Shown: piece after piece, positions 10,752-61,134 of the stretch
Numbering within the stretch: position 1 is the first letter of the stretch
Layout of the letters: each line of letters begins with the position of its first letter
IMG/VR virus record: IMGVR_UViG_3300031784_000003
DNA from: a virus
Lineage: Duplodnaviria > Caudoviricetes
Length of the DNA: 64,000 nucleotides
Reading direction: 5' to 3' (one strand)
Notes under the pieces: generated by a model
Databases searched by the model: none
What the model was told of the DNA's origin: nothing
What the model saw: the letters and a program-made list of their open reading frames with translations, nothing else
Made by a program: the position numbers and the translations under genes

Positions 10752-13652
10752 ATGGCAAAAATAAGTGGTAAAATAATAAATCCTATAAAAAGTGGTGGTG
10801 AGGTTATTAGAGAAATTGAGACACCTGTTGTTTTAAGAGTTGGTACAGACATTAACTATCAAGCATCATCTCTGTCTTCTTTTTTAGAAACCGAATCAGC
10901 ATTGTTTTTACCAACAAATTTATCTATGATAGATAATATTTTTGTATTATCTAAACCAGAAAAATATGGGCAGTCTATTTTTAGAGATAAATTAATTGAA
11001 AAAACTATTCCATTATATTTTTCTGGTAATAGTAGTGATAGTATTTTAACTACCCCAATAATACCTAATAATCAAATTAGATATATTGATGGGGGTAGAA
11101 AATATCAATTATTGGCTAGTAGGGGAGAAAGTTTACATATTGAAGTGGATATAAGTAATACTGAACCTTATATTCATGTGGAGAGGTCAGATTTTGATAG
11201 TTTTGATTTTCCTCAAATTACGATGAGATCTGTTCGTAAAATTCCTACATCTAGTGCGGAAACTTTATGTGGTCCTGTATCTTATACTGGGTATACATAT
11301 GATAGATTAAACTATAATTGGTTTTTTGGGCAAAATGTGGGTATAAGTTTTAACCCAATACAAAATGGTAATAATCCAATTACGATAAGTGGTGCGATGG
11401 TAACGCAGGAAGGATGCTCATCAATATCTAACGAAGAAGGTAAGTTATTGTTTTACACTAATGGTGAAACAGTATTTACTAGTGCTAATACTATTATGCT
11501 TAGTGGTGATAGTTTATCTAGTTCAGGAACATCAACACAATCGTCAATTATTGTCCCTAGACCGAATACGGATAAATATTATATATTTACTACTAACTAT
11601 AATGGTTTAACAAATGGGTTTAATTATTCTATAGTAGACATGAGTTTACAAAATGGTGACGGTCAAGTTACTACAAAAAATATACAACTAATTAGTAACC
11701 CTTTAACTGAAAAAGTTACTGCTTGTAGCCATAGTAATGGTGAAGATTATTGGGTAATAACACACACAAGTGGTGATAGTACATATTATAGTTATTACGT
11801 TTCGTCTATAGGTTTAACTGCACCAGTAACTACAAATATTGGTAGTGTTCACAATACTGTTAGGGGGTATATGAAAACATCTCCAGATGGTAATAAATTA
11901 ATTTCTTTACTATATGATGAAGACATTATAGATATTTTAGATTTTGAAAGTTCTGCAGGTACACTATCTAATTTGATTAGTATTACGGGAATGACATTTA
12001 ATGTTGGTCCGTATGGTTTAGAATTTTCTTCAGATTCGTCTAAGTTCTATGTTTCTGATGGTGCAGGCGAAAAAATCTACCAATTTGATTTATCATATAC
12101 ATCGGCAACGGAAATGGTTAATAATGTAATAGAGGTGGCAGATATTAGTGGGGCTACTTTAGGTGCATTACAAATGGGTCCTGATGAGAGAATTTATGTG
12201 GCAGATTATAATAGTGATAAATTACATATAATACATAGGCCAAATGGTTTAGGTGTTCAATGTAATTTTCAGGAAGATGGATTCACATTAACATCGTCTA
12301 CAGTGACAGGTACAACATCATTGTGGGGATTACCAAACGTCATCACTTCTAAAAGTATTTCTTGTGATAGATGTGTGTTTATAACCCCAAAAACTCAATC
12401 AGGTTTTCAGTTTGATTTATTGGTTAATAACATAAATGGAGTTATTGAAACAAATAAGTTATCGTATTATGGTGAGATTTATAAATACAATAGTAATACA
12501 CAAGTTTTTAATAATTCTGCATTGTATAATTTTTCACTACCATATGAAACTTTAACTGCAAATACAGGTAACACAATTTTTATACCTTCTTTGAACATAG
12601 GTGAAGGGGAATTTTTATTAAAATCTTATTGGAATTATGATGTCAATACACTTTTGGCTAAACAACAATTAGTAAGAAAGAATAGTTTAGACACATATAA
12701 AAGAGGTAATTTATATGGTATCTACTATCCTGAAACAGATTGGTATTTTATTAATATTTTTTCTGCGGATAAACCACTATTTAATAATAGTGTTGCACCA
12801 TCTCCACCATCTTTAAACACATTTACCGTTTCGACACAATTTACTAATTCAGGACAAACTGATTATTTTATAGATGGGTTATCTGACCCAATAGTAAGTT
12901 ATAATGGTTCTGTATTGGCAAAGGATATTGAGTATAGTGCTATAACAACAGGTGCAACACCATTTATAAGACTTTCATTTAGTCCATTAGATAATCAAAT
13001 ATTAACATACGCATTTATTTCAAACGGTAAAACAAATGATTTATTGGCAGACACATATCCGATAACGTCACCAATCAGTAGTGGGGTAACTCAATCTACG
13101 TCAGATAGAGTATTTTTTAATACAACTACTTTAAAATATGAATTTTATTTAACTAGTTCTCCAGCAACTGATGTAGTTTTATCTTTAAATGGATCAATTT
13201 TGTCTAAAGATATCGAATATTATAGATCAATTAGTGACAATAGAAGAATAATTTTAGAAAATAATTTAAATGTTGGAGATGTATTAGAGGCGTTTTATGT
13301 TCCTAACGCAGCGATTAATGGTGGAATAAGTACAAACACACCAATAATAAGTTGGTCAATAAATAGTGCACCATCTACCGAAATATATGGTCGTTTTACT
13401 GTTGAGATTACTTCTTCAACAGACATAGAGTTCCAAAGTGTCATATATAGTGAAATAGTAGACTATGAATTAAATCAAAAAACTTATAGTAAGATGATAA
13501 CGTTGACAAATGCGGTGGCAGGAGATAAATTTATATATAGAGTTAAAAATGAAAAATTTTATACACCAATTATAGGTGAAACTATTTATGATGTGTCATA
13601 TAGTGATGTAAATAAAATACAAATATTGACAAATGCTGGTAATGCATATTAA
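10752..13652 (+). CDS. Tail/receptor-binding protein with beta-propeller domain
   Basis: NWFFG..GISF, EGCSSISNEEGKLLFYTNG, SSTQSSIIVP and YWVITH motifs resemble the propeller of Bacteroidota T9SS/PKD surface proteins. Confidence 0.55.
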   Translation: MAKISGKIINPIKSGGEVIREIETPVVLRVGTDINYQASSLSSFLETESALFLPTNLSMIDNIFVLSKPEKYGQSIFRDKLIEKTIPLYFSGNSSDSILTTPIIPNNQIRYIDGGRKYQLLASRGESLHIEVDISNTEPYIHVERSDFDSFDFPQITMRSVRKIPTSSAETLCGPVSYTGYTYDRLNYNWFFGQNVGISFNPIQNGNNPITISGAMVTQEGCSSISNEEGKLLFYTNGETVFTSANTIMLSGDSLSSSGTSTQSSIIVPRPNTDKYYIFTTNYNGLTNGFNYSIVDMSLQNGDGQVTTKNIQLISNPLTEKVTACSHSNGEDYWVITHTSGDSTYYSYYVSSIGLTAPVTTNIGSVHNTVRGYMKTSPDGNKLISLLYDEDIIDILDFESSAGTLSNLISITGMTFNVGPYGLEFSSDSSKFYVSDGAGEKIYQFDLSYTSATEMVNNVIEVADISGATLGALQMGPDERIYVADYNSDKLHIIHRPNGLGVQCNFQEDGFTLTSSTVTGTTSLWGLPNVITSKSISCDRCVFITPKTQSGFQFDLLVNNINGVIETNKLSYYGEIYKYNSNTQVFNNSALYNFSLPYETLTANTGNTIFIPSLNIGEGEFLLKSYWNYDVNTLLAKQQLVRKNSLDTYKRGNLYGIYYPETDWYFINIFSADKPLFNNSVAPSPPSLNTFTVSTQFTNSGQTDYFIDGLSDPIVSYNGSVLAKDIEYSAITTGATPFIRLSFSPLDNQILTYAFISNGKTNDLLADTYPITSPISSGVTQSTSDRVFFNTTTLKYEFYLTSSPATDVVLSLNGSILSKDIEYYRSISDNRRIILENNLNVGDVLEAFYVPNAAINGGISTNTPIISWSINSAPSTEIYGRFTVEITSSTDIEFQSVIYSEIVDYELNQKTYSKMITLTNAVAGDKFIYRVKNEKFYTPIIGETIYDVSYSDVNKIQILTNAGNAY

Positions 13653-45874: not shown

Positions 45875-45953
45875 AAAAAATAATTTTTTTTTAAAAAACA
45901 TTTGACTTTTTAGAAAATAGTATATAAATTTGTATTCAGAAATAAAAAAAGAT

Positions 45954-47369
45954 ATGGAAACACAGTTGACTAATATTGAGAAAGAGAACGTAACATTAAC
46001 TAAAAACGGTATGGTTACTAACCCAACAACACTTAATAAGTGTGTTGACTTATTCTTCTCTATTGGTTCAATGAGAGGTAAGTCAAAAGATAAATTAATT
46101 AAAATGTTTAATGAGGCATTTGAAGAAAATCCTTTGATTACGACAAAAATTCTTTTTTGGGTTAGAGATATTAGAGGTGGTGCGGGTGAAAGAAAAGTGT
46201 TCAGAGATATTATTGAATACTTGGTAACTAACTCACCAGAAACAGTTAGAAAAAATATTAATCTAATACCTGAGTTCGGAAGATGGGATGACATATTGAT
46301 TCTTTTGGGTACAGAATTAGAAGAAGATATGTTTTACCATATCAGAGCAGCGTTAATCAACCGTACCGATGGTTTATGTGCTAAATGGATGCCTAGAAAA
46401 GGTGAGTTGGCAAACAAACTTAGAAAATTGTTTAAGATGACACCTAAACAATATAGAAAAATGTTAGTTGAATTAACTAATGTTGTTGAAACTAAGATGT
46501 GTGATAAGGATTGGGAATCTATTGATTATTCTAAATTACCTTCTTTAGCGTCATCTAGATATCAAAAATCTTTTAAGAGAAACGATACTGTTAGATATGA
46601 GGATTATAAAAATGCGTTGGTTGATGGTACCGCTAAGGTAAATGCTGGGGCAGTATATCCATATGATATCATTAAATCTATGAGATATGGTGGTGACGAT
46701 GTTGTCAACAATAAACAATGGGAATCCCTACCAAATTTTATGGAAGGATCCACTGAAAGAATATTACCAGTGGTAGACGTTTCTGGATCTATGACTTGTT
46801 CAGCAGGAGGAAATCCAAACCTAACATGTATAGATGTGGCAATATCATTAGGTATGTATATATCTGAAAGAAGTGAAGGTAATTTTAAAGATGCGTTTAT
46901 CACATTCTCTGAGAATCCACAACTACAGTATTTAAAAGGTGATTTAAAACAAAGATTGAACCAGTTACTTAGTGCGGAGTGGGGTATGACTACTAATTTA
47001 GAAAAAGTATTTAAATTAATACTTACACAGGCTAAGAACAACAAAATATCTGAAGATATGATGCCGACTAAAATAATTATTTTATCGGATATGGAGTTCA
47101 ACGAAGCAACTCGTAAAGATAGTAGTTCACAATCTATGATTGAAGCTATGTATGAGGAGGCAGGGTATAAAAAACCTGATATCATCTACTGGAATTTAAA
47201 TGCGACTGGAGGTAACTTTCCTGTTGAGTTTGATGAAAACGGAACTGCGTTAGTTTCAGGATTTAGTCCGTCAATTCTTAAATCTTTATTAGGTGGTAAG
47301 AATATGACACCAGAATCCATATTGTTGGATACTGTGAATAGTGAAAGATATGGTGTTATAACCGTATAA
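45954..47369 (+). CDS. TROVE/Ro60-like protein (DUF2828-type helical domain plus vWA)
   Basis: RDIRGGAGER, FGRWDD, CAKWMPR; vWA MIDAS DVSGS, FITFS, ILSDMEF. Confidence 0.75.
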   Translation: METQLTNIEKENVTLTKNGMVTNPTTLNKCVDLFFSIGSMRGKSKDKLIKMFNEAFEENPLITTKILFWVRDIRGGAGERKVFRDIIEYLVTNSPETVRKNINLIPEFGRWDDILILLGTELEEDMFYHIRAALINRTDGLCAKWMPRKGELANKLRKLFKMTPKQYRKMLVELTNVVETKMCDKDWESIDYSKLPSLASSRYQKSFKRNDTVRYEDYKNALVDGTAKVNAGAVYPYDIIKSMRYGGDDVVNNKQWESLPNFMEGSTERILPVVDVSGSMTCSAGGNPNLTCIDVAISLGMYISERSEGNFKDAFITFSENPQLQYLKGDLKQRLNQLLSAEWGMTTNLEKVFKLILTQAKNNKISEDMMPTKIIILSDMEFNEATRKDSSSQSMIEAMYEEAGYKKPDIIYWNLNATGGNFPVEFDENGTALVSGFSPSILKSLLGGKNMTPESILLDTVNSERYGVITV

Positions 47370-47391: not shown

Positions 47392-47548
47392 TTGTGATAG
47401 TTAAGGAATAATTGCAGCAAAATTTAAAACTAAAATTTATAGCTACATACAAAGGGCTTGATAACCCTCCTAACTATAAGGGTGTAAACCACGAAAGTGG
47501 GGGACCACTCACGGTTAGGTAAAGTGTCAAACTATTCCGATATCACAA
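47392..47548 (+). ncRNA. Y-RNA-like structured RNA A
   Basis: Closing helices TTGTGATA/TATCACAA and GGAATA/TATTCC followed by TTGCAGCAA; internal hairpins CCTAAC/GTTAGG and CCAC-gaaa-GTGG. Confidence 0.55.
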
Positions 47549-47556
47549 TCATATTA

Positions 47557-47878
47557 GGTGTAATGGATTGGAGGTTAACGAACCTCCTTTAAGTCCGATA
47601 AACGAATGGTTTCTGCAACTCTTATTCTAGGAACTATGTAGATCAGAAGTTTTACCACTTTACTTCAAAAAAAATATAAAGTGGCGACCATAGGTGAGTT
47701 TAAACGTGGGAAATTCCCACACTTTAGGTCGTAAAACATACCTCTTGTTTATCTCAAGTTAAAAAGGTAGTTGGATTTGTCTCAATTAAAAAAAAGACAC
47801 CCGAACCAGAATGGGCCAATAATATTGGGGTGGGTACTCTACCACCTAAAATAAAAACAGGACCACCATTCCGACACC
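47557..47878 (+). ncRNA. Large Y-RNA-like structured RNA B
   Basis: GGTGT/ACACC and GAATGGT/ACCATTC closing helices, TTCTGCAAC motif, at least 7 internal helices, no ORF. Confidence 0.55.
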
Positions 47879-54401: not shown

Positions 54402-54802
54402 GGGGATGGTTTTGGATTTGACAATCAAAGGTTGAGTTCGGAATGATGCAAGCAGGGTTAGATGGAAACCCTTAAACACCTATCAAAACATAAATGCAAA
54501 CGCATACAACGTAGAGGATATCATGAGTATCCCAACTTCTATTACTCGCTCAGCGGTAGTTGAAGAGATTGAATTAATGGAATTAGTTTAATCGGTGGGT
54601 CACACTTACCTAGAAACAGAAAGGTGTAAAAAATAGAGTTGATCGTCAATACTCTATAAACAATTGACGAAAACAGGGTTGTTGGATAACCATGTTATAA
54701 ATAAAACCAAATATTTTGTTTATTTAGAAAAATAAACTAAGCTTGTGAATGATTTTCTTATGGCGATTTGATTGGACGAGGGTTCGACTCCCTCCATCTC
54801 CA
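54402..54802 (+). ncRNA. ssrA: tmRNA
   Basis: 5' GGGGATG..GGATTTGAC; 3' T-arm GAGGG-TTCGACT-CCCTC and CATCTCCA with G3:U; resume codon GCA at 54496, tag ORF ends 54591. Confidence 0.92.
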
Positions 54803-54872
54803 CTAGTGTTGTCGGTTTCTTTGTTCCCTAAAAACAAAGTGGTGGAAGTTGATAGTAATCCTATCGGCCCTT

Positions 54873-58040: not shown

Positions 58041-58086
58041 TAAAAAAATATTTTTAAAATATTGACTTTTTAGATAAACTTTTGTA
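58041..58086 (+). promoter_or_regulatory. Promoter of tRNA operon 1 (46-bp repeat, copy 1)
   Basis: taaaaaaatatttttaaaatattgactttttagataaacttttgta, identical to 59495..59540. Confidence 0.8.
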
Positions 58087-58117
58087 TAATTGGTTATATT
58101 TAATTAAAACAGTGAAA

Positions 58118-58204
58118 ATGAAAATACATAATATACATATTAATTTTAGCCAATGGTGTCAACCGTATATCGGCGGATTGGGGTATATTATGGATATAAT
58201 TTAA
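58118..58204 (+). CDS. Attenuator leader peptide 1 (MKIHNIHINFSQWCQPYIGGLGYIMDII)
   Basis: 28-codon ORF between promoter and terminator (in-frame GTG also at 58112); codons match operon 1 tRNAs. Confidence 0.75.
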   Translation: MKIHNIHINFSQWCQPYIGGLGYIMDII

Positions 58205-58230
58205 TTGATAGTTAAATAAAATCAAAGTGA

Positions 58231-58265
58231 AACCCCAATTCAGAAATGATTTGGGGTTTTTTAAT
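58231..58265 (+). terminator. Attenuator terminator 1
   Basis: AAACCCCAATTCA-gaaa-TGATTTGGGGTTT plus U tract; competing strand ATTGGGGT at 58177..58184. Confidence 0.85.
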
Positions 58266-58271
58266 TTATTA

Positions 58272-58347
58272 CGGTATGTGGCCAAGTAGGTTTAAGGCAT
58301 CTCGCTGATATCGAGAAGATTCGTAGGTTCGATCCCTACCATACCGA
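58272..58347 (+). tRNA. tRNA-Ile(GAT)
   Basis: Cloverleaf; TCTCG-CTGATAT-CGAGA. Confidence 0.9.
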
Positions 58348-58356
58348 CAGAACAAA

Positions 58357-58370
58357 AGTTCTTTGACATA
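58357..58370 (+). promoter_or_regulatory. boxA-like antitermination element
   Basis: AGTTCTTTGACATA; also at 59742, with variants at about 47372 and 54387. Confidence 0.6.
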
Positions 58371-58387
58371 TTGTTATAAAAGTGAAT

Positions 58388-58460
58388 GACTCAGTAGCTC
58401 AGTTGGTAGAGCAATTGACTGTTAATCAATCGGTCGCAGGTTCGAATCCTGCCTGAGTCG
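58388..58460 (+). tRNA. tRNA-Asn(GTT)
   Basis: Cloverleaf; loop CTGTTAA. Confidence 0.95.
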
Positions 58461-58461
58461 C

Positions 58462-58523
58462 AAACTAACACAGAATGAATGATACGAGCCTCACAAGTTC
58501 GAAAGGAGTCAGGGTGTTAGTTT
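58462..58523 (+). ncRNA. Small structured element with anticodon-like stem-loop (CAC)
   Basis: 10-bp stem AAACTAACAC/GTGTTAGTTT enclosing CGAGC-CTCACAA-GTTCG. Confidence 0.4.
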
Positions 58524-58527
58524 AAAT

Positions 58528-58611
58528 GGGAATACGCCAAAGTTGGAGAGTTGGGGCAGACTGTAAATCTGTTGTCTTATGATTGAGTAGGTTCGAATCC
58601 TACTATTCTCA
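58528..58611 (+). tRNA. tRNA-Tyr(GTA)
   Basis: Cloverleaf with long variable arm; loop CTGTAAA. Confidence 0.92.
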
Positions 58612-58612
58612 C

Positions 58613-58693
58613 AAAATATTAAAAGGAAGATTTCAGCAAAAATAACTACGAACTGCAAATTTGGATATGTAAAAACATTTTCCTGAATATTTT
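58613..58693 (+). ncRNA. Minimal Y-RNA-like element with Cys anticodon-loop mimic
   Basis: AAAATATT/AATATTTT and AGGAAGAT/ATTTTCCT stems, TTCAGCAA motif, CGAA-CTGCAAA-TTTG hairpin. Confidence 0.5.
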
Positions 58694-58697
58694 ATTA

Positions 58698-58768
58698 GCG
58701 TCTCTGGTGTAACGGTAGCACCAACGGCTCCAACCCGTTAAGTAAGAGTTCGAATCTTTTGGGGCGCG
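58698..58768 (+). tRNA. tRNA-Trp(CCA)
   Basis: AACGG-CTCCAAC-CCGTT. Confidence 0.9.
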
Positions 58769-58773
58769 CAAAT

Positions 58774-58849
58774 GGTGATGTAGCTCAGTTGGTAGAGCAA
58801 TGGACTGAAAATCCTTGTGTCGGTGGTTCGATTCCGTCCATCACCACCA
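58774..58849 (+). tRNA. tRNA-Phe(GAA)
   Basis: Cloverleaf with encoded CCA. Confidence 0.95.
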
Positions 58850-58857
58850 AATTTTAA

Positions 58858-58932
58858 CTGGGTATTGGCTAATTGGTAAGCCGCCACATTTGGGATGTGG
58901 ACATAGTGTGAGTTCGAGTCTCGCTACCCAGA
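58858..58932 (+). tRNA. tRNA-Pro(TGG)
   Basis: CCACA-TTTGGGA-TGTGG. Confidence 0.92.
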
Positions 58933-58939
58933 CTAATAT

Positions 58940-59013
58940 TGTCCTGTAGACGAATTGGCAAAGTCATCACGCTTTGAACGTGAAGTTTGGAAGTTCGAGC
59001 CTTCCCAGGACAA
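58940..59013 (+). tRNA. tRNA-Gln(TTG)
   Basis: TCACG-CTTTGAA-CGTGA. Confidence 0.9.
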
Positions 59014-59015
59014 CT

Positions 59016-59089
59016 GTGTATGAAGCTAAAGAGGTCGAGGCGTCGGGTTGTGATTCCGATAATAGTGGGTTCGAGTCCCATCGTACACC
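59016..59089 (+). tRNA. tRNA-His(GTG)
   Basis: TCGGG-TTGTGAT-TCCGA; C73 discriminator. Confidence 0.9.
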
Positions 59090-59093
59090 TAAT

Positions 59094-59180
59094 GGAAAGA
59101 TGACAGAGTGGTTTATTGTGGCACCCTGCTAAGGTGTTGTACTCGAAAGGGTACCATAGGTTCAAATCCTATTCTTTCCG
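59094..59180 (+). tRNA. tRNA-Ser(GCT)
   Basis: GCACC-CTGCTAA-GGTGT; long variable arm. Confidence 0.92.
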
Positions 59181-59186
59181 CAATAT

Positions 59187-59258
59187 GGGGATGTGATGTA
59201 ACGGTGAACATGCTACTCTTATACAGTAGTCTCGGTGGTTCGACTCCACCCATCCCTA
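59187..59258 (+). tRNA. tRNA-Ile(TAT)
   Basis: CTACT-CTTATAC-AGTAG; GGGGATG/CATCCCT acceptor stem. Confidence 0.85.
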
Positions 59259-59262
59259 CAAC

Positions 59263-59335
59263 ACACTCTTAGTTCAATGGATTAGAACCTATGACTACGG
59301 ATCATAAAATGGGAGTTCGAATCTCTCAGAGTGTA
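59263..59335 (+). tRNA. tRNA-Arg(ACG)
   Basis: TATGA-CTACGGA-TCATA. Confidence 0.9.
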
Positions 59336-59404
59336 CAATAAACTTATTTTTGCTACAATAAACAGATAAAGTTTATCATGCAAAATCTAGTTTAGTGAAC
59401 TAAT

Positions 59405-59478
59405 GGTCAGATGCCTGAGTGGTTTAAAGGGGTAGTCTGCAAAACTATTTTTCGGGGGTTCGAATCCCTCTCTGACCT
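59405..59478 (+). tRNA. tRNA-Cys(GCA)
   Basis: GTAGT-CTGCAAA-ACTAT; U73. Confidence 0.92.
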
Positions 59479-59494
59479 CATAAATAAAAAAAAT

Positions 59495-59540
59495 TAAAAA
59501 AATATTTTTAAAATATTGACTTTTTAGATAAACTTTTGTA
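59495..59540 (+). promoter_or_regulatory. Promoter of tRNA operon 2 (46-bp repeat, copy 2)
   Basis: Identical to 58041..58086; followed by Bacteroidota -7 element TAACTTTG. Confidence 0.8.
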
Positions 59541-59578
59541 ACTTTGTGTATATTTAATTAAAAACGAAATAAAATTCA

Positions 59579-59677
59579 GTGAAAACTACAATGACATACA
59601 GATTAGAGGTTGCTAAGGCAAAAATGGATGGGGCGGATTCGCTTCTACCAAATCTTAGGGTATATCATTATAGTTAA
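59579..59677 (+). CDS. Attenuator leader peptide 2 (MKTTMTYRLEVAKAKMDGADSLLPNLRVYHYS)
   Basis: 32-codon GTG-start ORF in the same cagtgaaaa context as leader 1; codons match operon 2 tRNAs. Confidence 0.75.
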   Translation: MKTTMTYRLEVAKAKMDGADSLLPNLRVYHYS

Positions 59678-59706
59678 TCAAAAAAATTTAAAATACTATA
59701 TTATGG

Positions 59707-59740
59707 AAACCCTAAGTGAAAACTTAGGGTTTTTTGTTTT
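59707..59740 (+). terminator. Attenuator terminator 2
   Basis: AAACCCTAAGT-gaaa-ACTTAGGGTTT plus U tract; competing CTTAGGGT at 59654..59661. Confidence 0.88.
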
Positions 59741-59741
59741 T

Positions 59742-59755
59742 AGTTCTTTGACATA
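59742..59755 (+). promoter_or_regulatory. boxA-like element
   Basis: AGTTCTTTGACATA immediately after terminator 2. Confidence 0.6.
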
Positions 59756-59766
59756 TTAAAAAAAAT

Positions 59767-59852
59767 GGAAGAGTGGCAGAGTTGGTTTATTGCACCTGTC
59801 TTGAAAATAGGAGTACTTAACGGTACCGTAGGTTCGAATCCTACCTCTTCCT
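59767..59852 (+). tRNA. tRNA-Ser(TGA)
   Basis: CCTGT-CTTGAAA-ATAGG; long variable arm. Confidence 0.92.
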
Positions 59853-59855
59853 CAA

Positions 59856-59999
59856 AATGATAATAAAGGGATTGTTTCTGCAACAATTATTTTAGCCTTT
59901 TAAGCTCGGGGTCGTAGGTTCGAATCCTACCTGAGGACATTTATTGTCTTCAGTAGCTTAGTGGTAGAGCACGTATACAACCCAATCCTGATTATCATT
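59856..59999 (+). ncRNA. YrlA-like Y RNA (circularly permuted tRNA mimic)
   Basis: Closing stems AATGATAAT/ATTATCATT and GGGATTG/CAATCCT; T-arm precedes loop-closed acceptor stem CTGAGGAC/GTCTTCAG, then D-arm. Confidence 0.8.
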
Positions 60000-60004
60000 T
60001 ATTA

Positions 60005-60080
60005 GGTCCATTGGTGTAATGGTTTAACATACATCACTGTCTATGATGTGCTGAGAGTTCGATTCTCTCATGGACCGCCA
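60005..60080 (+). tRNA. tRNA-Asp(GTC)
   Basis: Cloverleaf with CCA. Confidence 0.93.
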
Positions 60081-60081
60081 C

Positions 60082-60154
60082 AGTCTCTTAACTCAGTTGG
60101 TAGAGTGCTTGTTTTACATGCAAGATGTCGTAGGTTCGAATCCTACAGAGACTA
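60082..60154 (+). tRNA. tRNA-Val(TAC)
   Basis: CTTGT-TTTACAT-GCAAG. Confidence 0.92.
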
Positions 60155-60162
60155 CTAAATAC

Positions 60163-60236
60163 CGCCCGTTGGACAAGTGGTTTAAGTCGTTTCCCTTTCA
60201 CGGAAAAGATCATGGGTTCGAATCCCATACGGGTGA
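60163..60236 (+). tRNA. tRNA-Glu(TTC)
   Basis: TTTCC-CTTTCAC-GGAAA. Confidence 0.92.
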
Positions 60237-60242
60237 CTATTA

Positions 60243-60314
60243 GGTTTTGTAGTTTAGTCGGTAAAACTCTTGATTTGTAATCAAGTGTCCTCAGTTCGAA
60301 TCTGAGCGAAACCT
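60243..60314 (+). tRNA. tRNA-Thr(TGT)
   Basis: CTTGA-TTTGTAA-TCAAG. Confidence 0.9.
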
Positions 60315-60320
60315 CAACAA

Positions 60321-60395
60321 TCCTTCGTAGCTCAGTTGGTTTAGAGCAGTACACTTTTAATGTACGGGTCACAGGTTCGATTCCTGTCGGGGGAA
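60321..60395 (+). tRNA. tRNA-Lys(TTT)
   Basis: GTACA-CTTTTAA-TGTAC. Confidence 0.93.
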
Positions 60396-60429
60396 CTTAA
60401 ATATACCGAATTCGGTGTAATTAAAAAAT

Positions 60430-60507
60430 AGCGGGGTAGACTGGAGGTGGTTCCAGCTCGGTCTCATAAGCCGAATTACGTGGGTTCGAGTCCCATCCCC
60501 GCAACCA
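60430..60507 (+). tRNA. tRNA-Met(CAT), initiator-like
   Basis: TCGGT-CTCATAA-GCCGA; unpaired A1:A72; CCA encoded. Confidence 0.85.
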
Positions 60508-60510
60508 ATT

Positions 60511-60584
60511 GGGTCATTGGTGAAGATGGCTATCACACCTGATTTGCACTCAGGAGTCCTCGGTTCGATGCCGAGATGTATCCA
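60511..60584 (+). tRNA. tRNA-Ala(TGC) with bulged acceptor stem
   Basis: CCTGA-TTTGCAC-TCAGG; G3:U70 present; one extra T in the 3' acceptor strand. Confidence 0.8.
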
Positions 60585-60750
60585 CTAATAATAAAAATAA
60601 AAATAAAAAGTATGAAAGAAGTAATGTCTGGGACAATTAAGTCCTCAAAGGAAAATTTTAATATGTTGAGACATAGAAAAAATTCAATCGATTTAAGTAA
60701 GTTGGTAGAATTTATTAAATTTAAAAAGATTAGGAAAAAATAATCTTAAT

Positions 60751-60823
60751 GCAGGTATCGTATAGTGGTTTATTATGTCTGACTTCCAATCAGAGGACGA
60801 GAGTTCGATTCTCTCTACCTGCT
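60751..60823 (+). tRNA. tRNA-Gly(TCC)
   Basis: TCTGA-CTTCCAA-TCAGA; U73. Confidence 0.92.
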
Positions 60824-60829
60824 CAAAAT

Positions 60830-60904
60830 GCCAAAGTGACGGGAAATGGTATACCTCTTTGTCTTAGAAACAAAGGTTTGTGAGTTCGAATCTCACCTTT
60901 GGTA
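60830..60904 (+). tRNA. tRNA-Leu(TAG) with short variable loop
   Basis: TTTGT-CTTAGAA-ACAAA; 5-nt variable region GGTTT. Confidence 0.8.
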
Positions 60905-61134
60905 CAATTATTATTAAAATATTTGTTTTTTAATTTAATAGTTTTTATATTTGTTAAAAAAATATTATGGGAATACCTCAAATCACTTTAATTTTATTAT
61001 TTTCTTTAAGTTTATTAGCTGCAGCTCATTTGCACGGTAAAGAAAGAACCCCACATAACTTTTGGGTTACATTTATTGCAGTCATCATCGAAGTATCTAT
61101 TTTAATATGGGGTGGGTTTTTTTAAATTAGTATT

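What the first reader, a model, noticed from the sequence alone, without database searches (positions are those of the whole stretch)
58613..58693. Minimal Y-like RNA carrying only a Cys anticodon hairpin
Seen in sequence: the same closing-stem and TTCAGCAA signature encloses CGAA-CTGCAAA-TTTG, whose 7-nt loop is identical to that of tRNA-Cys at 59405. It is embedded between the Tyr and Trp tRNAs and would be released by tRNA processing (inference). It could be a minimal decoy or a degenerate remnant.
Basis: partly seen in the sequence, partly recalled or inferred. Interest (0 to 1): 0.6.

Follow-up and report, generated by a model that had tools for sequence, protein, structure and literature searches.

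The report
Phage Ro60-partner RNA with anticodon mimic
The 81-base spacer between two phage tRNA genes is a real small-RNA gene from a large, unpublished phage family that travels with a Ro60-like protein. Many members display a copy of a tRNA anticodon arm, here the cysteine one.

Summary
Window 58613-58693 folds into a terminal two-tier stem, followed by the box UUCAGCAA and a weak hairpin CGAA-CUGCAAA-UUUG. The hairpin loop equals the anticodon loop of the phage's own tRNA-Cys.

A covariance model built only from 44 similar RNAs of other phages hits the window once, exactly here (48.4 bits, E 3e-8). The family has at least 143 distinct members in my sample. It is confined to phage contigs that encode a DUF2828 protein, which is Ro60-like by fold search. 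Members usually lie beside that gene or are wedged between tRNA genes.

In 26 of 138 members the variable middle carries a hairpin whose 7-nt loop is a genuine tRNA anticodon loop. Controls give about 0.8. The types are Lys, Thr, Cys and Tyr, and the stems covary.

Two caveats apply. In the sister lineage a 7-nt deletion removes this hairpin while the handle stays intact. The hairpin is also thermodynamically marginal.

The handle matches the architecture of dictyostelid Class I RNAs (AAG, stem, ACAGCAA box, CUG), but Rfam models do not hit it. Binding, expression and function are inferred, not shown. This scan has noted the same protein-RNA system before on other DNA (55 notes, at least 52 genomes).

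The parts
58528..58612 (+). tRNA-Tyr(GTA). Maturation of its 3' end would create the 5' end of the small RNA.
   Evidence: ARAGORN and Rfam tRNA
58613..58620 (+). Outer stem, 5' strand (AAAAUAUU). It pairs with 58686-58693.
   Evidence: Pair probabilities 0.75-0.98. Invariant in orthologues. An outer stem is present in only part of the family.
58624..58631 (+). Handle stem, 5' strand (AGGAAGAU), preceded by the conserved A run (the 'AAG' start).
   Evidence: Aligned to the 7-bp helix of models R1 and R2. In orthologues the partner strand changes G.U to G-C and U-A to U.G, keeping the pairing.
58632..58639 (+). Conserved single-stranded box UUCAGCAA (family consensus U-N-C-N-G-C-A-A).
   Evidence: C, G, C, A, A are invariant in 44 and in 22 aligned relatives. 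The box is present within 260 nt downstream of the DUF2828 gene in 62 of 77 loci.
58649..58663 (+). Anticodon-arm-like hairpin CGAA-CUGCAAA-UUUG. The loop is identical to that of tRNA-Cys.
   Evidence: Sequence. Loop identity. Model R2 aligns it to the family's anticodon-arm helix. It starts 9 nt after the box; the family range is 6-15. Pair probability is only about 0.12.
58664..58676 (+). A-rich linker ending in AAAAAC, before the 3' strand of the handle.
   Evidence: The A-rich tract is conserved in the family alignments.
58677..58685 (+). Handle stem, 3' strand (AUUUUCCU) plus unpaired G. The conserved C-U-G lies at 58683-58685.
   Evidence: C, U, G are invariant in A3 and A6.
58686..58697 (+). 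Outer stem, 3' strand (AAUAUUUU), and a 4-nt tail before tRNA-Trp.
58698..58769 (+). tRNA-Trp(CCA). RNase P cleavage at its 5' end would create the 3' end of the small RNA (inferred).
58062..58090 (+). Promoter-like site of tRNA operon 1 (TTGACT-17-TATAAT). No promoter or terminator signal lies between tRNA-Tyr and tRNA-Trp.
45930..47369 (+). Gene for the Ro60-like protein (DUF2828 + DUF7788, with a vWA MIDAS motif DVSGS). It is the presumed protein partner, 11.2 kb upstream on the same strand.
   Evidence: Pfam. The profile's best PDB hits are TROVE proteins, E 0.038. The top 13 Foldseek hits are all Ro60/TROVE, E 3e-8 to 1e-4, on a low-confidence model.
47405..47540 (+). Long handle RNA 1, directly behind the Ro60-like gene (stem GGAAUAAUU / AACUAUUCC, box UGCAGCAA).
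   Evidence: Conserved in L020-L023.
47603..47873 (+). Long handle RNA 2 (stem GAAUGGU / ACCAUUC, box UUCUGCAA).
59855..60004 (+). YrlA-like permuted tRNA mimic with the same two-tier handle and box UUCUGCAA. This is the full-size counterpart of the minimal RNA.
   Evidence: Fold z -3.4. Rfam YrlA 30.9 bits, below the cut-off of 69.
59405..59479 (+). tRNA-Cys(GCA). Its anticodon loop, 59437-59443, is CUGCAAA.

Best explanation
Window 58613-58697 encodes a small non-coding RNA of about 70-85 nt. It belongs to a widespread, unpublished family of phage 'handle' RNAs.

Proposed mechanism, with my odds for each step:
- It is transcribed as part of tRNA operon 1 and cut out by the enzymes that mature the flanking tRNA-Tyr and tRNA-Trp (inferred, about 0.75).
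- Its conserved handle is the docking site for the phage's Ro60-like DUF2828 protein (inferred from co-occurrence and adjacency, about 0.65). The handle consists of an AAG start, a 7-8 bp stem formed by the two ends, the box UUCAGCAA and a closing CUG.
- The variable middle is the cargo. In this copy it is a weak look-alike of the tRNA-Cys anticodon arm. About one family member in five displays a Lys, Thr, Cys or Tyr anticodon arm at the same place.
- The particle would therefore present an anticodon-arm mimic to some factor that reads tRNA anticodon loops, such as a host anticodon nuclease or a modification or repair enzyme.
- Whether the Cys arm of this copy is functional is uncertain (about 0.4). 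The decoy or sensor role is a guess (about 0.15-0.2).
For: Family membership:
- Model R1 was built from 44 RNAs of other phages, with the window and its orthologues left out. It gives a single hit in the window, 58615-58693, 48.4 bits, E 3e-8, over the full model.
- All 85 hits in 83 sources, including 80 DUF2828 loci, are on the gene's strand.

Link to the protein:
- 34 hits lie within 500 nt downstream of the DUF2828 stop codon.
- Of the 49 contigs tested, 26 carry the DUF2828 protein, and all 26 are R1-positive.
- Among contigs at least 20% complete, 20 of 21 R1-positive contigs carry it, against 0 of 8 whose pattern match R1 rejected.
- The protein is Ro60-like.

tRNA context:
- 91 of 143 distinct RNAs lie within 300 nt of a same-strand tRNA.
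- 37 have a tRNA ending within 30 nt upstream and 27 have one starting within 30 nt downstream.

Anticodon mimicry:
- 26 of 138 bodies hold a hairpin of at least 4 bp whose 7-nt loop is a real tRNA anticodon loop of these phages.
- Shuffles give 0.67 (max 5 in 400). Natural 36-nt windows from the same loci give 0.77 +/- 0.89 per 138.
- The loop CUUUUAA occurs on 8 different stems.
- Both helices show compensatory changes (4 pairs each), with 96% of cells paired against at most 44% when the partners are slid.
- Model R2, built without the window, aligns the window's hairpin to the family's anticodon arm, 41.1 bits.

Other support:
- Cys-type loops recur in three other phage contigs (L134, L105, L173).
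- The orthologous handle is conserved, with pair-preserving changes.
- The element is identical in two more assemblies.
Against:
- No binding data.
- The window's hairpin has only 4 pairs, with one G.U. It adds no stability and has about 0.12 pair probability.
- In the L014-L019 lineage a 7-nt deletion removes the hairpin while every handle position is kept. The Cys arm is therefore dispensable, at least there.
- About 80% of family members show no tRNA-type loop.
- The element lies 11.2 kb from the Ro60-like gene, not next to it.
- Co-occurrence with DUF2828 could partly reflect shared ancestry of the phages.
- Training sets for R1 and R2 were picked by complementarity, so the pairing percentages lean towards the structure.
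- The protein model is low-confidence (pLDDT 53).
Confidence: 0.6

Rival explanations
1. It is a genuine handle RNA and protein partner, but the Cys-like hairpin of this copy is incidental. On this view the middle is only a spacer of the right length and A/U content, and the identity with the tRNA-Cys loop is chance or a leftover.
For: - The hairpin is marginal: 4 bp, pair probability about 0.12.
- It is deleted in the sister lineage, which keeps an intact handle.
- Most family members (112 of 138) have no tRNA-type loop.
- R1, which has no hairpin in its structure, scores the L014 form higher (56.3 bits) than the window form (48.4 bits).
Against: - The hairpin sits at the family's usual offset, 9 nt after the box, and R2 aligns it to the family arm.
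- tRNA-type loops are about 30-fold enriched in the family.
- Cys-type loops recur in three other phage contigs.
- The hairpin-bearing form is fixed in at least three assemblies.
Confidence: 0.25
2. It is a cis-acting processing spacer of the tRNA operon. On this view the stem merely helps RNase P, RNase E or RNase Z separate tRNA-Tyr from tRNA-Trp, the excised piece is degraded, and there is no trans function or protein partner.
For: - Other spacers of the same array also fold into stem-closed hairpins: 58462-58527 (z -3.7) and 59337-59404 (z -3.1).
- The element has no promoter or terminator of its own.
- Phage T4 also has small RNAs in its tRNA cluster.
Against: - The same RNA family occurs away from tRNAs, directly behind or in front of the DUF2828 gene: 34 hits within 500 nt downstream.
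- The family has an invariant single-stranded box that a mere processing stem would not need.
- It tracks the DUF2828 gene across contigs.
- The other two spacers lack the box and are not hit by R1.
Confidence: 0.08
3. It is a decaying remnant of a YrlA-like tRNA mimic or of a tRNA-Cys gene. On this view the remnant has lost its T, acceptor and D arms and is on its way out.
For: - The layout equals the YrlA-like RNA at 59855-60004 minus the T, acceptor and D arms.
- The sister lineage has lost a further 7 nt.
- The tRNA island is a variable region, replaced by protein genes in the relative G003.
Against: - Short forms are a discrete class: bodies of 21-45 nt in 49 distinct RNAs, against long forms of 80 nt or more.
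- They are found in phages whose Ro60-like proteins are only 50-60% identical.
- They show compensatory changes in both helices.
- The handle is invariant between the two lineages while neighbouring tRNAs differ.
Confidence: 0.06

Closest known systems
Ro60 (Rsr/TROVE) with Y RNAs, especially bacterial and mycobacteriophage YrlA/YrlB (Chen et al. 2014, PMC4201824; Rfam RF02553, RF00019)
   Same: - A ring-type Ro60-like protein (alpha-solenoid plus vWA with a MIDAS motif) is encoded with several small RNAs on the same strand.
- The RNAs are modular. A stem formed by the 5' and 3' ends carries the conserved protein-side motif, and the distal part varies.
- One RNA per genome is a tRNA mimic (here 59855-60004), and shorter partner RNAs without the full mimic also exist (YrlB, Yrn2).
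- A link to tRNA damage and repair is known for the Salmonella rsr-yrlBA-rtcBA operon (PMC7790460).
   Different: - The protein is DUF2828/DUF7788, not Pfam TROVE.
- The conserved GNCGAAN(0-1)G motif of YrlA/YrlB is absent from the handle, which instead has U-N-C-N-GCAA and a closing CUG.
- There is no T arm or D arm.
- Rfam YrlA and Y_RNA models do not hit the element.
- The gene is embedded in a tRNA operon 11 kb from the protein gene.
Dictyostelid Class I RNAs (Rfam RF01414; Kjellin et al. 2021, PMC7919456)
   Same: The architecture is almost point for point the same:
- length of about 45-65 nt;
- an AAG start;
- a short stem joining the 5' and 3' ends, whose first G pairs with a conserved C;
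- a conserved motif directly after the 5' strand. In Class I RNAs this is CCUUACAGCAA, seen in the paper's sequence files. Here it is UUUCAGCAA, and many phage members read UUACAGCAA;
- a variable A/U-rich middle, often ending in an A run;
- a 3' end of CUG(U).
   Different: - Class I RNAs are eukaryotic, made from their own promoters, and reported as unique to Dictyostelia.
- Their known direct binder is the RRM protein Rnp1A.
- The Rfam model does not report the window's element even at E up to 10.
- Whether the likeness is homology, horizontal transfer or convergence is unknown.
- I did not test whether dictyostelids have a DUF2828 protein.
Phage T4 stable RNAs rnaC and rnaD (species 1 and 2) in the tRNA gene cluster
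   Same: They are small stable RNAs of unknown function, encoded among the tRNA genes of a T4-type phage and released by tRNA processing (annotation).
   Different: They have no handle. R1 finds nothing at rnaC or rnaD, and the best hit in the 5-kb region is 15.8 bits elsewhere.
Phage answers to host anticodon nucleases: nuclease-insensitive phage tRNAs and tRNA repair (van den Berg et al. 2023, PMC10264068; PARIS/AriB and T5 tRNA-Lys, PMC11455837)
   Same: The same battlefield is implied. The loops displayed by the family (Lys UUU most often, also Thr, Cys and Tyr) are those of tRNAs known or proposed as nuclease targets, and the RNAs sit inside phage tRNA arrays.
   Different: The known counter-measures are replacement tRNAs with altered loops, or ligases. 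An anticodon-arm mimic mounted on a Ro60-like particle has not been described in the papers I could search. No nuclease link was tested here.

Membership tests
   AGGAAGAU pairs with AUUUUCCU. It is aligned to the model helix with no non-standard pair. Pair probabilities are 0.6-0.96.
   UUCAGCAA at 58632-58639 and CUG at 58683-58685. These are invariant columns in A3 and A6.
   R1: 48.4 bits, E 3e-8, the only hit in the window. R2: 41.1 bits, E 4e-6.
   The gene lies at 45930-47369 on the + strand. Family-wide, 20 of 21 R1-positive contigs against 0 of 8 R1-negative contigs carry it, among contigs at least 20% complete.
Anticodon-arm-bearing subclass of the handle RNAs | Hairpin with a 7-nt loop of tRNA type (Y-U-NNN-R-N), starting 6-15 nt after the box, typically with a 5-bp stem | tested here: inconclusive
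   Loop CUGCAAA, offset 9 nt. R2 aligns it to the arm, but only 4 standard pairs form and the outer A.G is flagged. Pair probability is about 0.12. The hairpin is absent in the sister lineage.
YrlA / bacterial Y RNA (RF02553; Chen et al. 2014) | GNCGAAN(0-1)G motif near the 5' end | tested here: not met
   Read from the sequence. The 5' part has no such motif. The nearest string, UACGAACUG at 58647-58655, lies in the body and fails at the first position and in the spacing.
YrlA / bacterial Y RNA (RF02553; Chen et al. 2014) | tRNA-like domain with a T arm and a D arm | tested here: not met
   There is no T-loop or D-loop sequence in 58613-58697. ARAGORN and Rfam tRNA give no hit there.
YrlA / bacterial Y RNA (RF02553; Chen et al. 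2014) | Rfam model at or above the gathering score | tested here: not met
   No YrlA or Y_RNA match to the element even at E up to 10.
YrlA / bacterial Y RNA (RF02553; Chen et al. 2014) | Encoded within about 4 kb of the Ro60 gene, on the same strand | tested here: not met
   The strand is the same, but the element lies 11.2 kb downstream. Other family members do lie within 500 nt.
YrlA / bacterial Y RNA (RF02553; Chen et al. 2014) | Physically bound by the Ro60 orthologue | not testable with these tools
   This needs immunoprecipitation or a gel-shift assay.
Dictyostelid Class I RNA (RF01414) | AAG start, short terminal stem, an 11-nt motif ending in ACAGCAA beside the 5' strand, and a CUGU end | tested here: inconclusive
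   The architecture matches. The window's box differs from the motif: UUUCAGCAA against CUUACAGCAA. The 3' end reads CUGA.
Dictyostelid Class I RNA (RF01414) | Rfam model at or above the gathering score | tested here: not met
   No RF01414 match is listed at E up to 10, either on 3.1 kb or on 101 nt.
tRNA | Cloverleaf detected by ARAGORN or Rfam RF00005 | tested here: not met
   No call within 58613-58697.

The most novel reading that the evidence does not exclude
Phages of many lineages build a Ro60-like particle whose interchangeable small RNAs each display a copy of a different tRNA anticodon arm (Lys, Thr, Cys, Tyr and others). The particle would act as an RNA-based decoy or sensor against host enzymes that cut or mark anticodon loops. 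The same handle in dictyostelid Class I RNAs would point to a shared, ancient RNP module whose protein partner has been overlooked.
Probability: 0.15. Interest if true: 0.9.

Novelty: new variant of a known kind. Interest (0 to 1): 0.7.

Why it matters
- If the reading holds, tRNA-array 'spacers' in many large phages are genes for a second kind of Ro60/Y-RNA particle. That would explain gaps that annotation pipelines leave empty.
- It would give a function-sized handle on DUF2828, a protein family found in 711 cultured phage records with no literature on its function.
- The anticodon-arm cargo ties the particle to the current question of how phages survive host tRNA-cutting defences.
- The near-identical architecture of dictyostelid Class I RNAs, abundant RNAs whose molecular role is unknown, offers a testable lead for that open problem.
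- Members in Escherichia phage VpaE1 (Felix O1 type) and Cronobacter phage S13 make the system testable at the bench.

Tried and rejected
- An exact 40-mer of the element is absent from IMG/VR.
- A search with the single DUF2828 protein found no loci. An alignment was needed.
- Relatives found through the neighbouring 256-aa gene (L001-L004) carry no tRNAs there. In G003 the array position holds protein genes. BLAST of the element against those contigs gave only chance matches.
- My first two stem scanners were too strict or too loose. The third gave 198 hits against 35 on reversed sequence and served only to seed model R1.
- The one metagenome pattern scan returned three GC-rich chance matches with no tRNAs.
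- Exact-protein look-ups failed for P0121 and for the TTG-start form of the 100-aa gene.
There is therefore no read evidence and no read-laying run.
- Rfam gave nothing for the element at any threshold.
- T4 rnaC and rnaD are not relatives.
- For a while I thought CUGCAAA was a mutated copy of a CUACAAA box seen after the GCAA box in some relatives. I dropped this once the enrichment and covariation of the anticodon-arm hairpin were measured.
- A second GCAA word in the bodies is mildly enriched: 25 observed against 14 +/- 3. I did not pursue it.
- The AlphaFold model of the protein is poor (pLDDT 53). I use only the consistent ranking of Ro60 chains, not its geometry.

Full report
**What is there.**

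The window comes from an AT-rich T4-like phage. It holds a tmRNA and 22 tRNA genes in two operons.

The finding is the 85-nt gap between tRNA-Tyr (ends 58612) and tRNA-Trp (starts 58698). Read directly, the gap contains, in order:
- an outer stem, AAAAUAUU (58613-58620), pairing with AAUAUUUU (58686-58693);
- an AAA bulge;
- an inner stem, AGGAAGAU (58624-58631), pairing with AUUUUCCU (58677-58684);
- the box UUCAGCAA (58632-58639);
- a 9-nt linker;
- the hairpin CGAA-CUGCAAA-UUUG (58649-58663);
- an A-rich linker;
- an unpaired G after the inner stem.

The hairpin loop is identical to the anticodon loop of the phage's tRNA-Cys at 59437-59443.

One detail needs correcting. The exact word TTCAGCAA occurs once in the window. 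The sister RNAs carry TTCTGCAA (59876, 47611) and TGCAGCAA (47413).

**Is it more than chance?**

Thermodynamics alone does not say so. The MFE is -8.8 kcal/mol with z -0.8. The two handle stems are well populated (0.6-0.98), but the small hairpin adds no stability and has about 0.12 pair probability.

The case rests on comparison. The same two-tier closing stem, 5' A bulge, single 3' G and box appear in the YrlA-like permuted tRNA mimic at 59855-60004 (fold z -3.4; Rfam YrlA 30.9 bits, below threshold). The stem and box also appear in two long RNAs directly behind the gene at 45930-47369.

**The protein.**

That gene encodes a DUF2828 + DUF7788 protein. Three observations mark it as Ro60-like:
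- It has an invariant DVSGS MIDAS motif.
- A profile of the family finds TROVE-domain proteins as its best PDB sequence matches, E 0.038.
- Foldseek ranks 13 Ro60/TROVE chains first: Thermus phage phiLo Ro60, Xenopus and human Ro60, and Deinococcus Rsr. They score E 3e-8 to 1e-4 over the whole length.

The structure model is poor (pLDDT 53), so I use only the consistent ranking. I found no paper on the function of DUF2828. A jumbo-phage survey mentions TROVE proteins with a tRNA-like partner only in passing.

**Orthologues.**

The closest IMG/VR relative (G003, 86% identical protein) has protein genes where this phage has its tRNA arrays.

Walking along public assemblies through neighbouring proteins gave two lineages.
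- L221 and L222, from independent ENA and JGI assemblies, carry the element letter for letter.
- L014-L019 have a protein about 95% identical and the same order of tRNAs. Every position of the outer stem, inner 5' strand and box is identical.
- In L014-L019 the inner 3' strand changes from AUUUUCCU to GUCUUCCU. This turns G.U into G-C and U-A into U.G, so pairing is kept.
- A 7-nt deletion (GAACUGC) in L014-L019 removes the 5' half of the small hairpin and most of its loop.

So the handle is under constraint, and the Cys arm is dispensable in that lineage.

**The family.**

An alignment of DUF2828 proteins retrieved 80 phage loci with 50-86% identity. In 62 of the 77 loci with enough downstream DNA, the box lies within 260 nt after the stop codon.

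A stem-aware scan gave 182 candidates on the gene's strand, 16 on the other strand and 35 in reversed-sequence controls. Body lengths were bimodal: 49 distinct short forms (21-45 nt) and long forms of 80 nt or more.

I built model R1 from 44 short forms, leaving out the window and its orthologues.
- R1 hits the window once, at 58615-58693, 48.4 bits, E 3e-8. The next hit scores 13.5 bits.
- Over 83 sources (the window, its two orthologous loci and 80 DUF2828 loci) it gives 85 hits, all on the gene's strand.
- Of these, 34 lie within 500 nt downstream of the gene and 33 lie 5.5-9.4 kb downstream next to tRNA genes.

**RNA-first test of the protein link.**

R1 confirmed 106 RNAs in 67 of those loci. 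I then searched 49 of the contigs for the protein.
- 26 contigs have the protein, and all 26 are R1-positive.
- Among contigs that CheckV rates at least 20% complete, 20 of 21 R1-positive contigs have it.
- None of the 8 contigs whose pattern match R1 rejected has it. A hand-computed exact test gives about 2e-6.
- The 14 other R1-positive contigs without the gene are fragments of at most 18% completeness.

Relatedness among the phages inflates this figure. Together with the adjacency, it still makes the DUF2828 protein the most likely partner.

**tRNA context.**

Of 143 distinct family RNAs:
- 37 have a same-strand tRNA ending within 30 nt upstream, and for 19 of these it is tRNA-Met(CAT);
- 27 have a tRNA starting within 30 nt downstream;
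- 91 lie within 300 nt of a tRNA.

The window's element has no promoter-like or terminator-like site of its own. The nearest promoter-like site is at 58062-58090. Excision by tRNA maturation is therefore a reasonable inference, but no reads could be examined.

**The anticodon question.**

I listed every hairpin of at least 4 bp with a 7-nt loop in the 138 bodies.
- 26 bodies (23 distinct hairpins) carry a loop identical to a real anticodon loop among the 613 tRNAs of the same loci.
- Half-wise shuffles give 0.67 on average, with a maximum of 5 in 400.
- Random natural 36-nt windows from the same loci give 0.77 +/- 0.89 per 138.
- The loops are CUUUUAA (Lys, on 8 different stems), CUUGUAA (Thr), CUGCAAA and UUGCAAA (Cys, four RNAs including this one), CUGUAAA (Tyr), and single Met, Ser, Glu and Gln types.
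- The hairpins start 6-15 nt after the box. The window's starts at 9.

In an alignment of 22 such RNAs, both helices show four pairs with changes on both sides. In that alignment 96% of cells pair, against at most 44% when partners are slid, and no shuffle reaches the covariation score. These rows were chosen for having the hairpin, so the percentage leans high. The variety of stems under one loop is the informative part.

Model R2 was built from that alignment without the window. It aligns the window's CGAA-CUGCAAA-UUUG to the family arm (41.1 bits), flagging only the outermost A.G. In L014 it skips the arm.

The layout equals the YrlA-like RNA minus its T, acceptor and D arms. That RNA shows AGC-CUUUUAA-GCU at the same offset after its box.

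**Comparison with known families.**

The system works like Ro60 with Y RNAs. The protein has the Ro60 fold. Its RNAs are closed by a stem formed from their two ends and carry a variable module. One of them is a tRNA mimic, and shorter partners lack it, as with YrlB and Yrn2 (PMC4201824).

It is not a member of YrlA or Y_RNA. The GNCGAAN(0-1)G motif, the T arm and the D arm are absent, and the Rfam models do not hit it.

A note from an earlier report of this scan pointed me to dictyostelid Class I RNAs, and I checked the paper. Those RNAs start with AAG and have a short stem joining the ends. An 11-nt motif lies beside the 5' strand, followed by a variable middle and a CUGU end. The paper's sequence files give the motif as CCUUACAGCAA and show A-rich tracts before the 3' strand. 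That is the architecture found here, and many phage members read UUACAGCAA exactly. Rfam RF01414 nevertheless does not report the element. I record a striking resemblance, not membership.

T4 rnaC and rnaD share the setting but not the handle.

**Mechanism and odds.**

| Step | Basis | My odds |
|---|---|---|
| The element is a member of this RNA family | shown | about 0.95 |
| It is excised as a discrete RNA | inferred | about 0.75 |
| The handle docks the DUF2828 protein | inferred | about 0.65 |
| The Cys arm of this copy works | open | about 0.4 |
| The anticodon arms serve as decoys or sensors for host enzymes that read anticodon loops | guess | about 0.15-0.2 |

The last line is a guess prompted by the literature on anticodon nucleases and phage tRNAs (PMC10264068, PMC11455837).

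**Tractable models and earlier notes.**

The protein occurs in 711 cultured phage records. R1 finds family RNAs in two of them:
- Cronobacter phage S13, between tRNA-Lys, tRNA-Tyr and tRNA-Asp;
- Escherichia phage VpaE1 (Felix O1 type), in the gap just behind its DUF2828 gene.

This scan has already noted the same protein-RNA system on other DNA: 55 notes in at least 52 genomes.

Noticed in passing
window 58462-58527: The Asn-Tyr spacer folds into a 66-nt hairpin closed by a 10-bp stem (z -3.7). It has no CAGCAA box and no R1 hit. It is conserved in L014 with a few changes in the apical part. It may be another processed small RNA of unknown kind.
   Followed up: partly
window 59337-59404: The Arg-Cys spacer is a 68-nt three-tier hairpin (z -3.1). 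It is present in L014, L015 and L019 but missing in L016 and L017, where tRNA-Arg and tRNA-Cys are 5 nt apart. It is therefore an insertion/deletion polymorphism inside the array.
   Followed up: partly
L014:11034-11403: The sister lineage has extra material between Trp, Phe, Pro and Gln that this window lacks. One piece is a 121-nt stretch with an acceptor-like stem and a T arm (11145-11265) that ARAGORN does not call. Another is a 62-nt stem-closed spacer.
   Followed up: no
L003:12058-14460 versus window 58067-60916: In the closest IMG/VR relative (G003) the whole block of two tRNA operons and handle RNAs is replaced by protein-coding genes. A few tRNAs, some unusually long, lie elsewhere (L010). 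The tRNA/handle-RNA block behaves as a swappable island.
   Followed up: partly
family loci, e.g. L083:17936-18085, L048:10071-10223, L074:18108-18254: The commonest upstream neighbour of a minimal handle RNA is tRNA-Met(CAT): 19 of the 37 RNAs with a tRNA ending within 30 nt upstream. The RNA often starts 12-14 nt after the tRNA.
   Followed up: partly
L229:16869-17111 (Cronobacter phage S13): Directly behind the DUF2828 gene the GenBank record annotates a 121-nt 'tRNA-Ser' and a 113-nt 'tRNA-OTHER'. Given their position and odd lengths, these may be misannotated tRNA-mimic handle RNAs.
   Followed up: no
L039:5400-5475: ARAGORN calls a tRNA with a four-letter anticodon (gcaa) inside a phage tRNA array that also holds handle RNAs.
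   Followed up: no
L089:9833-9900, L054:11496-11575, L039:11740-11809: Some minimal RNAs carry a second copy of the (C)AGCAA box in their body. A GCAA word occurs in 25 of 138 bodies, against 14 +/- 3 in shuffles.
   Followed up: partly
L003:6261-6832: This stretch is 88% identical to the window's tmRNA gene (54402-54805), yet ARAGORN reported no tmRNA in L003.
   Followed up: no
G011 and G050 (loci L111, L170): Two contigs with confirmed handle RNAs lack a close DUF2828 protein. They do encode a 563-aa frame that matches only profile positions 255-450 (E about 1e-13). It may be a more distant Ro60-like/vWA partner.
   Followed up: no
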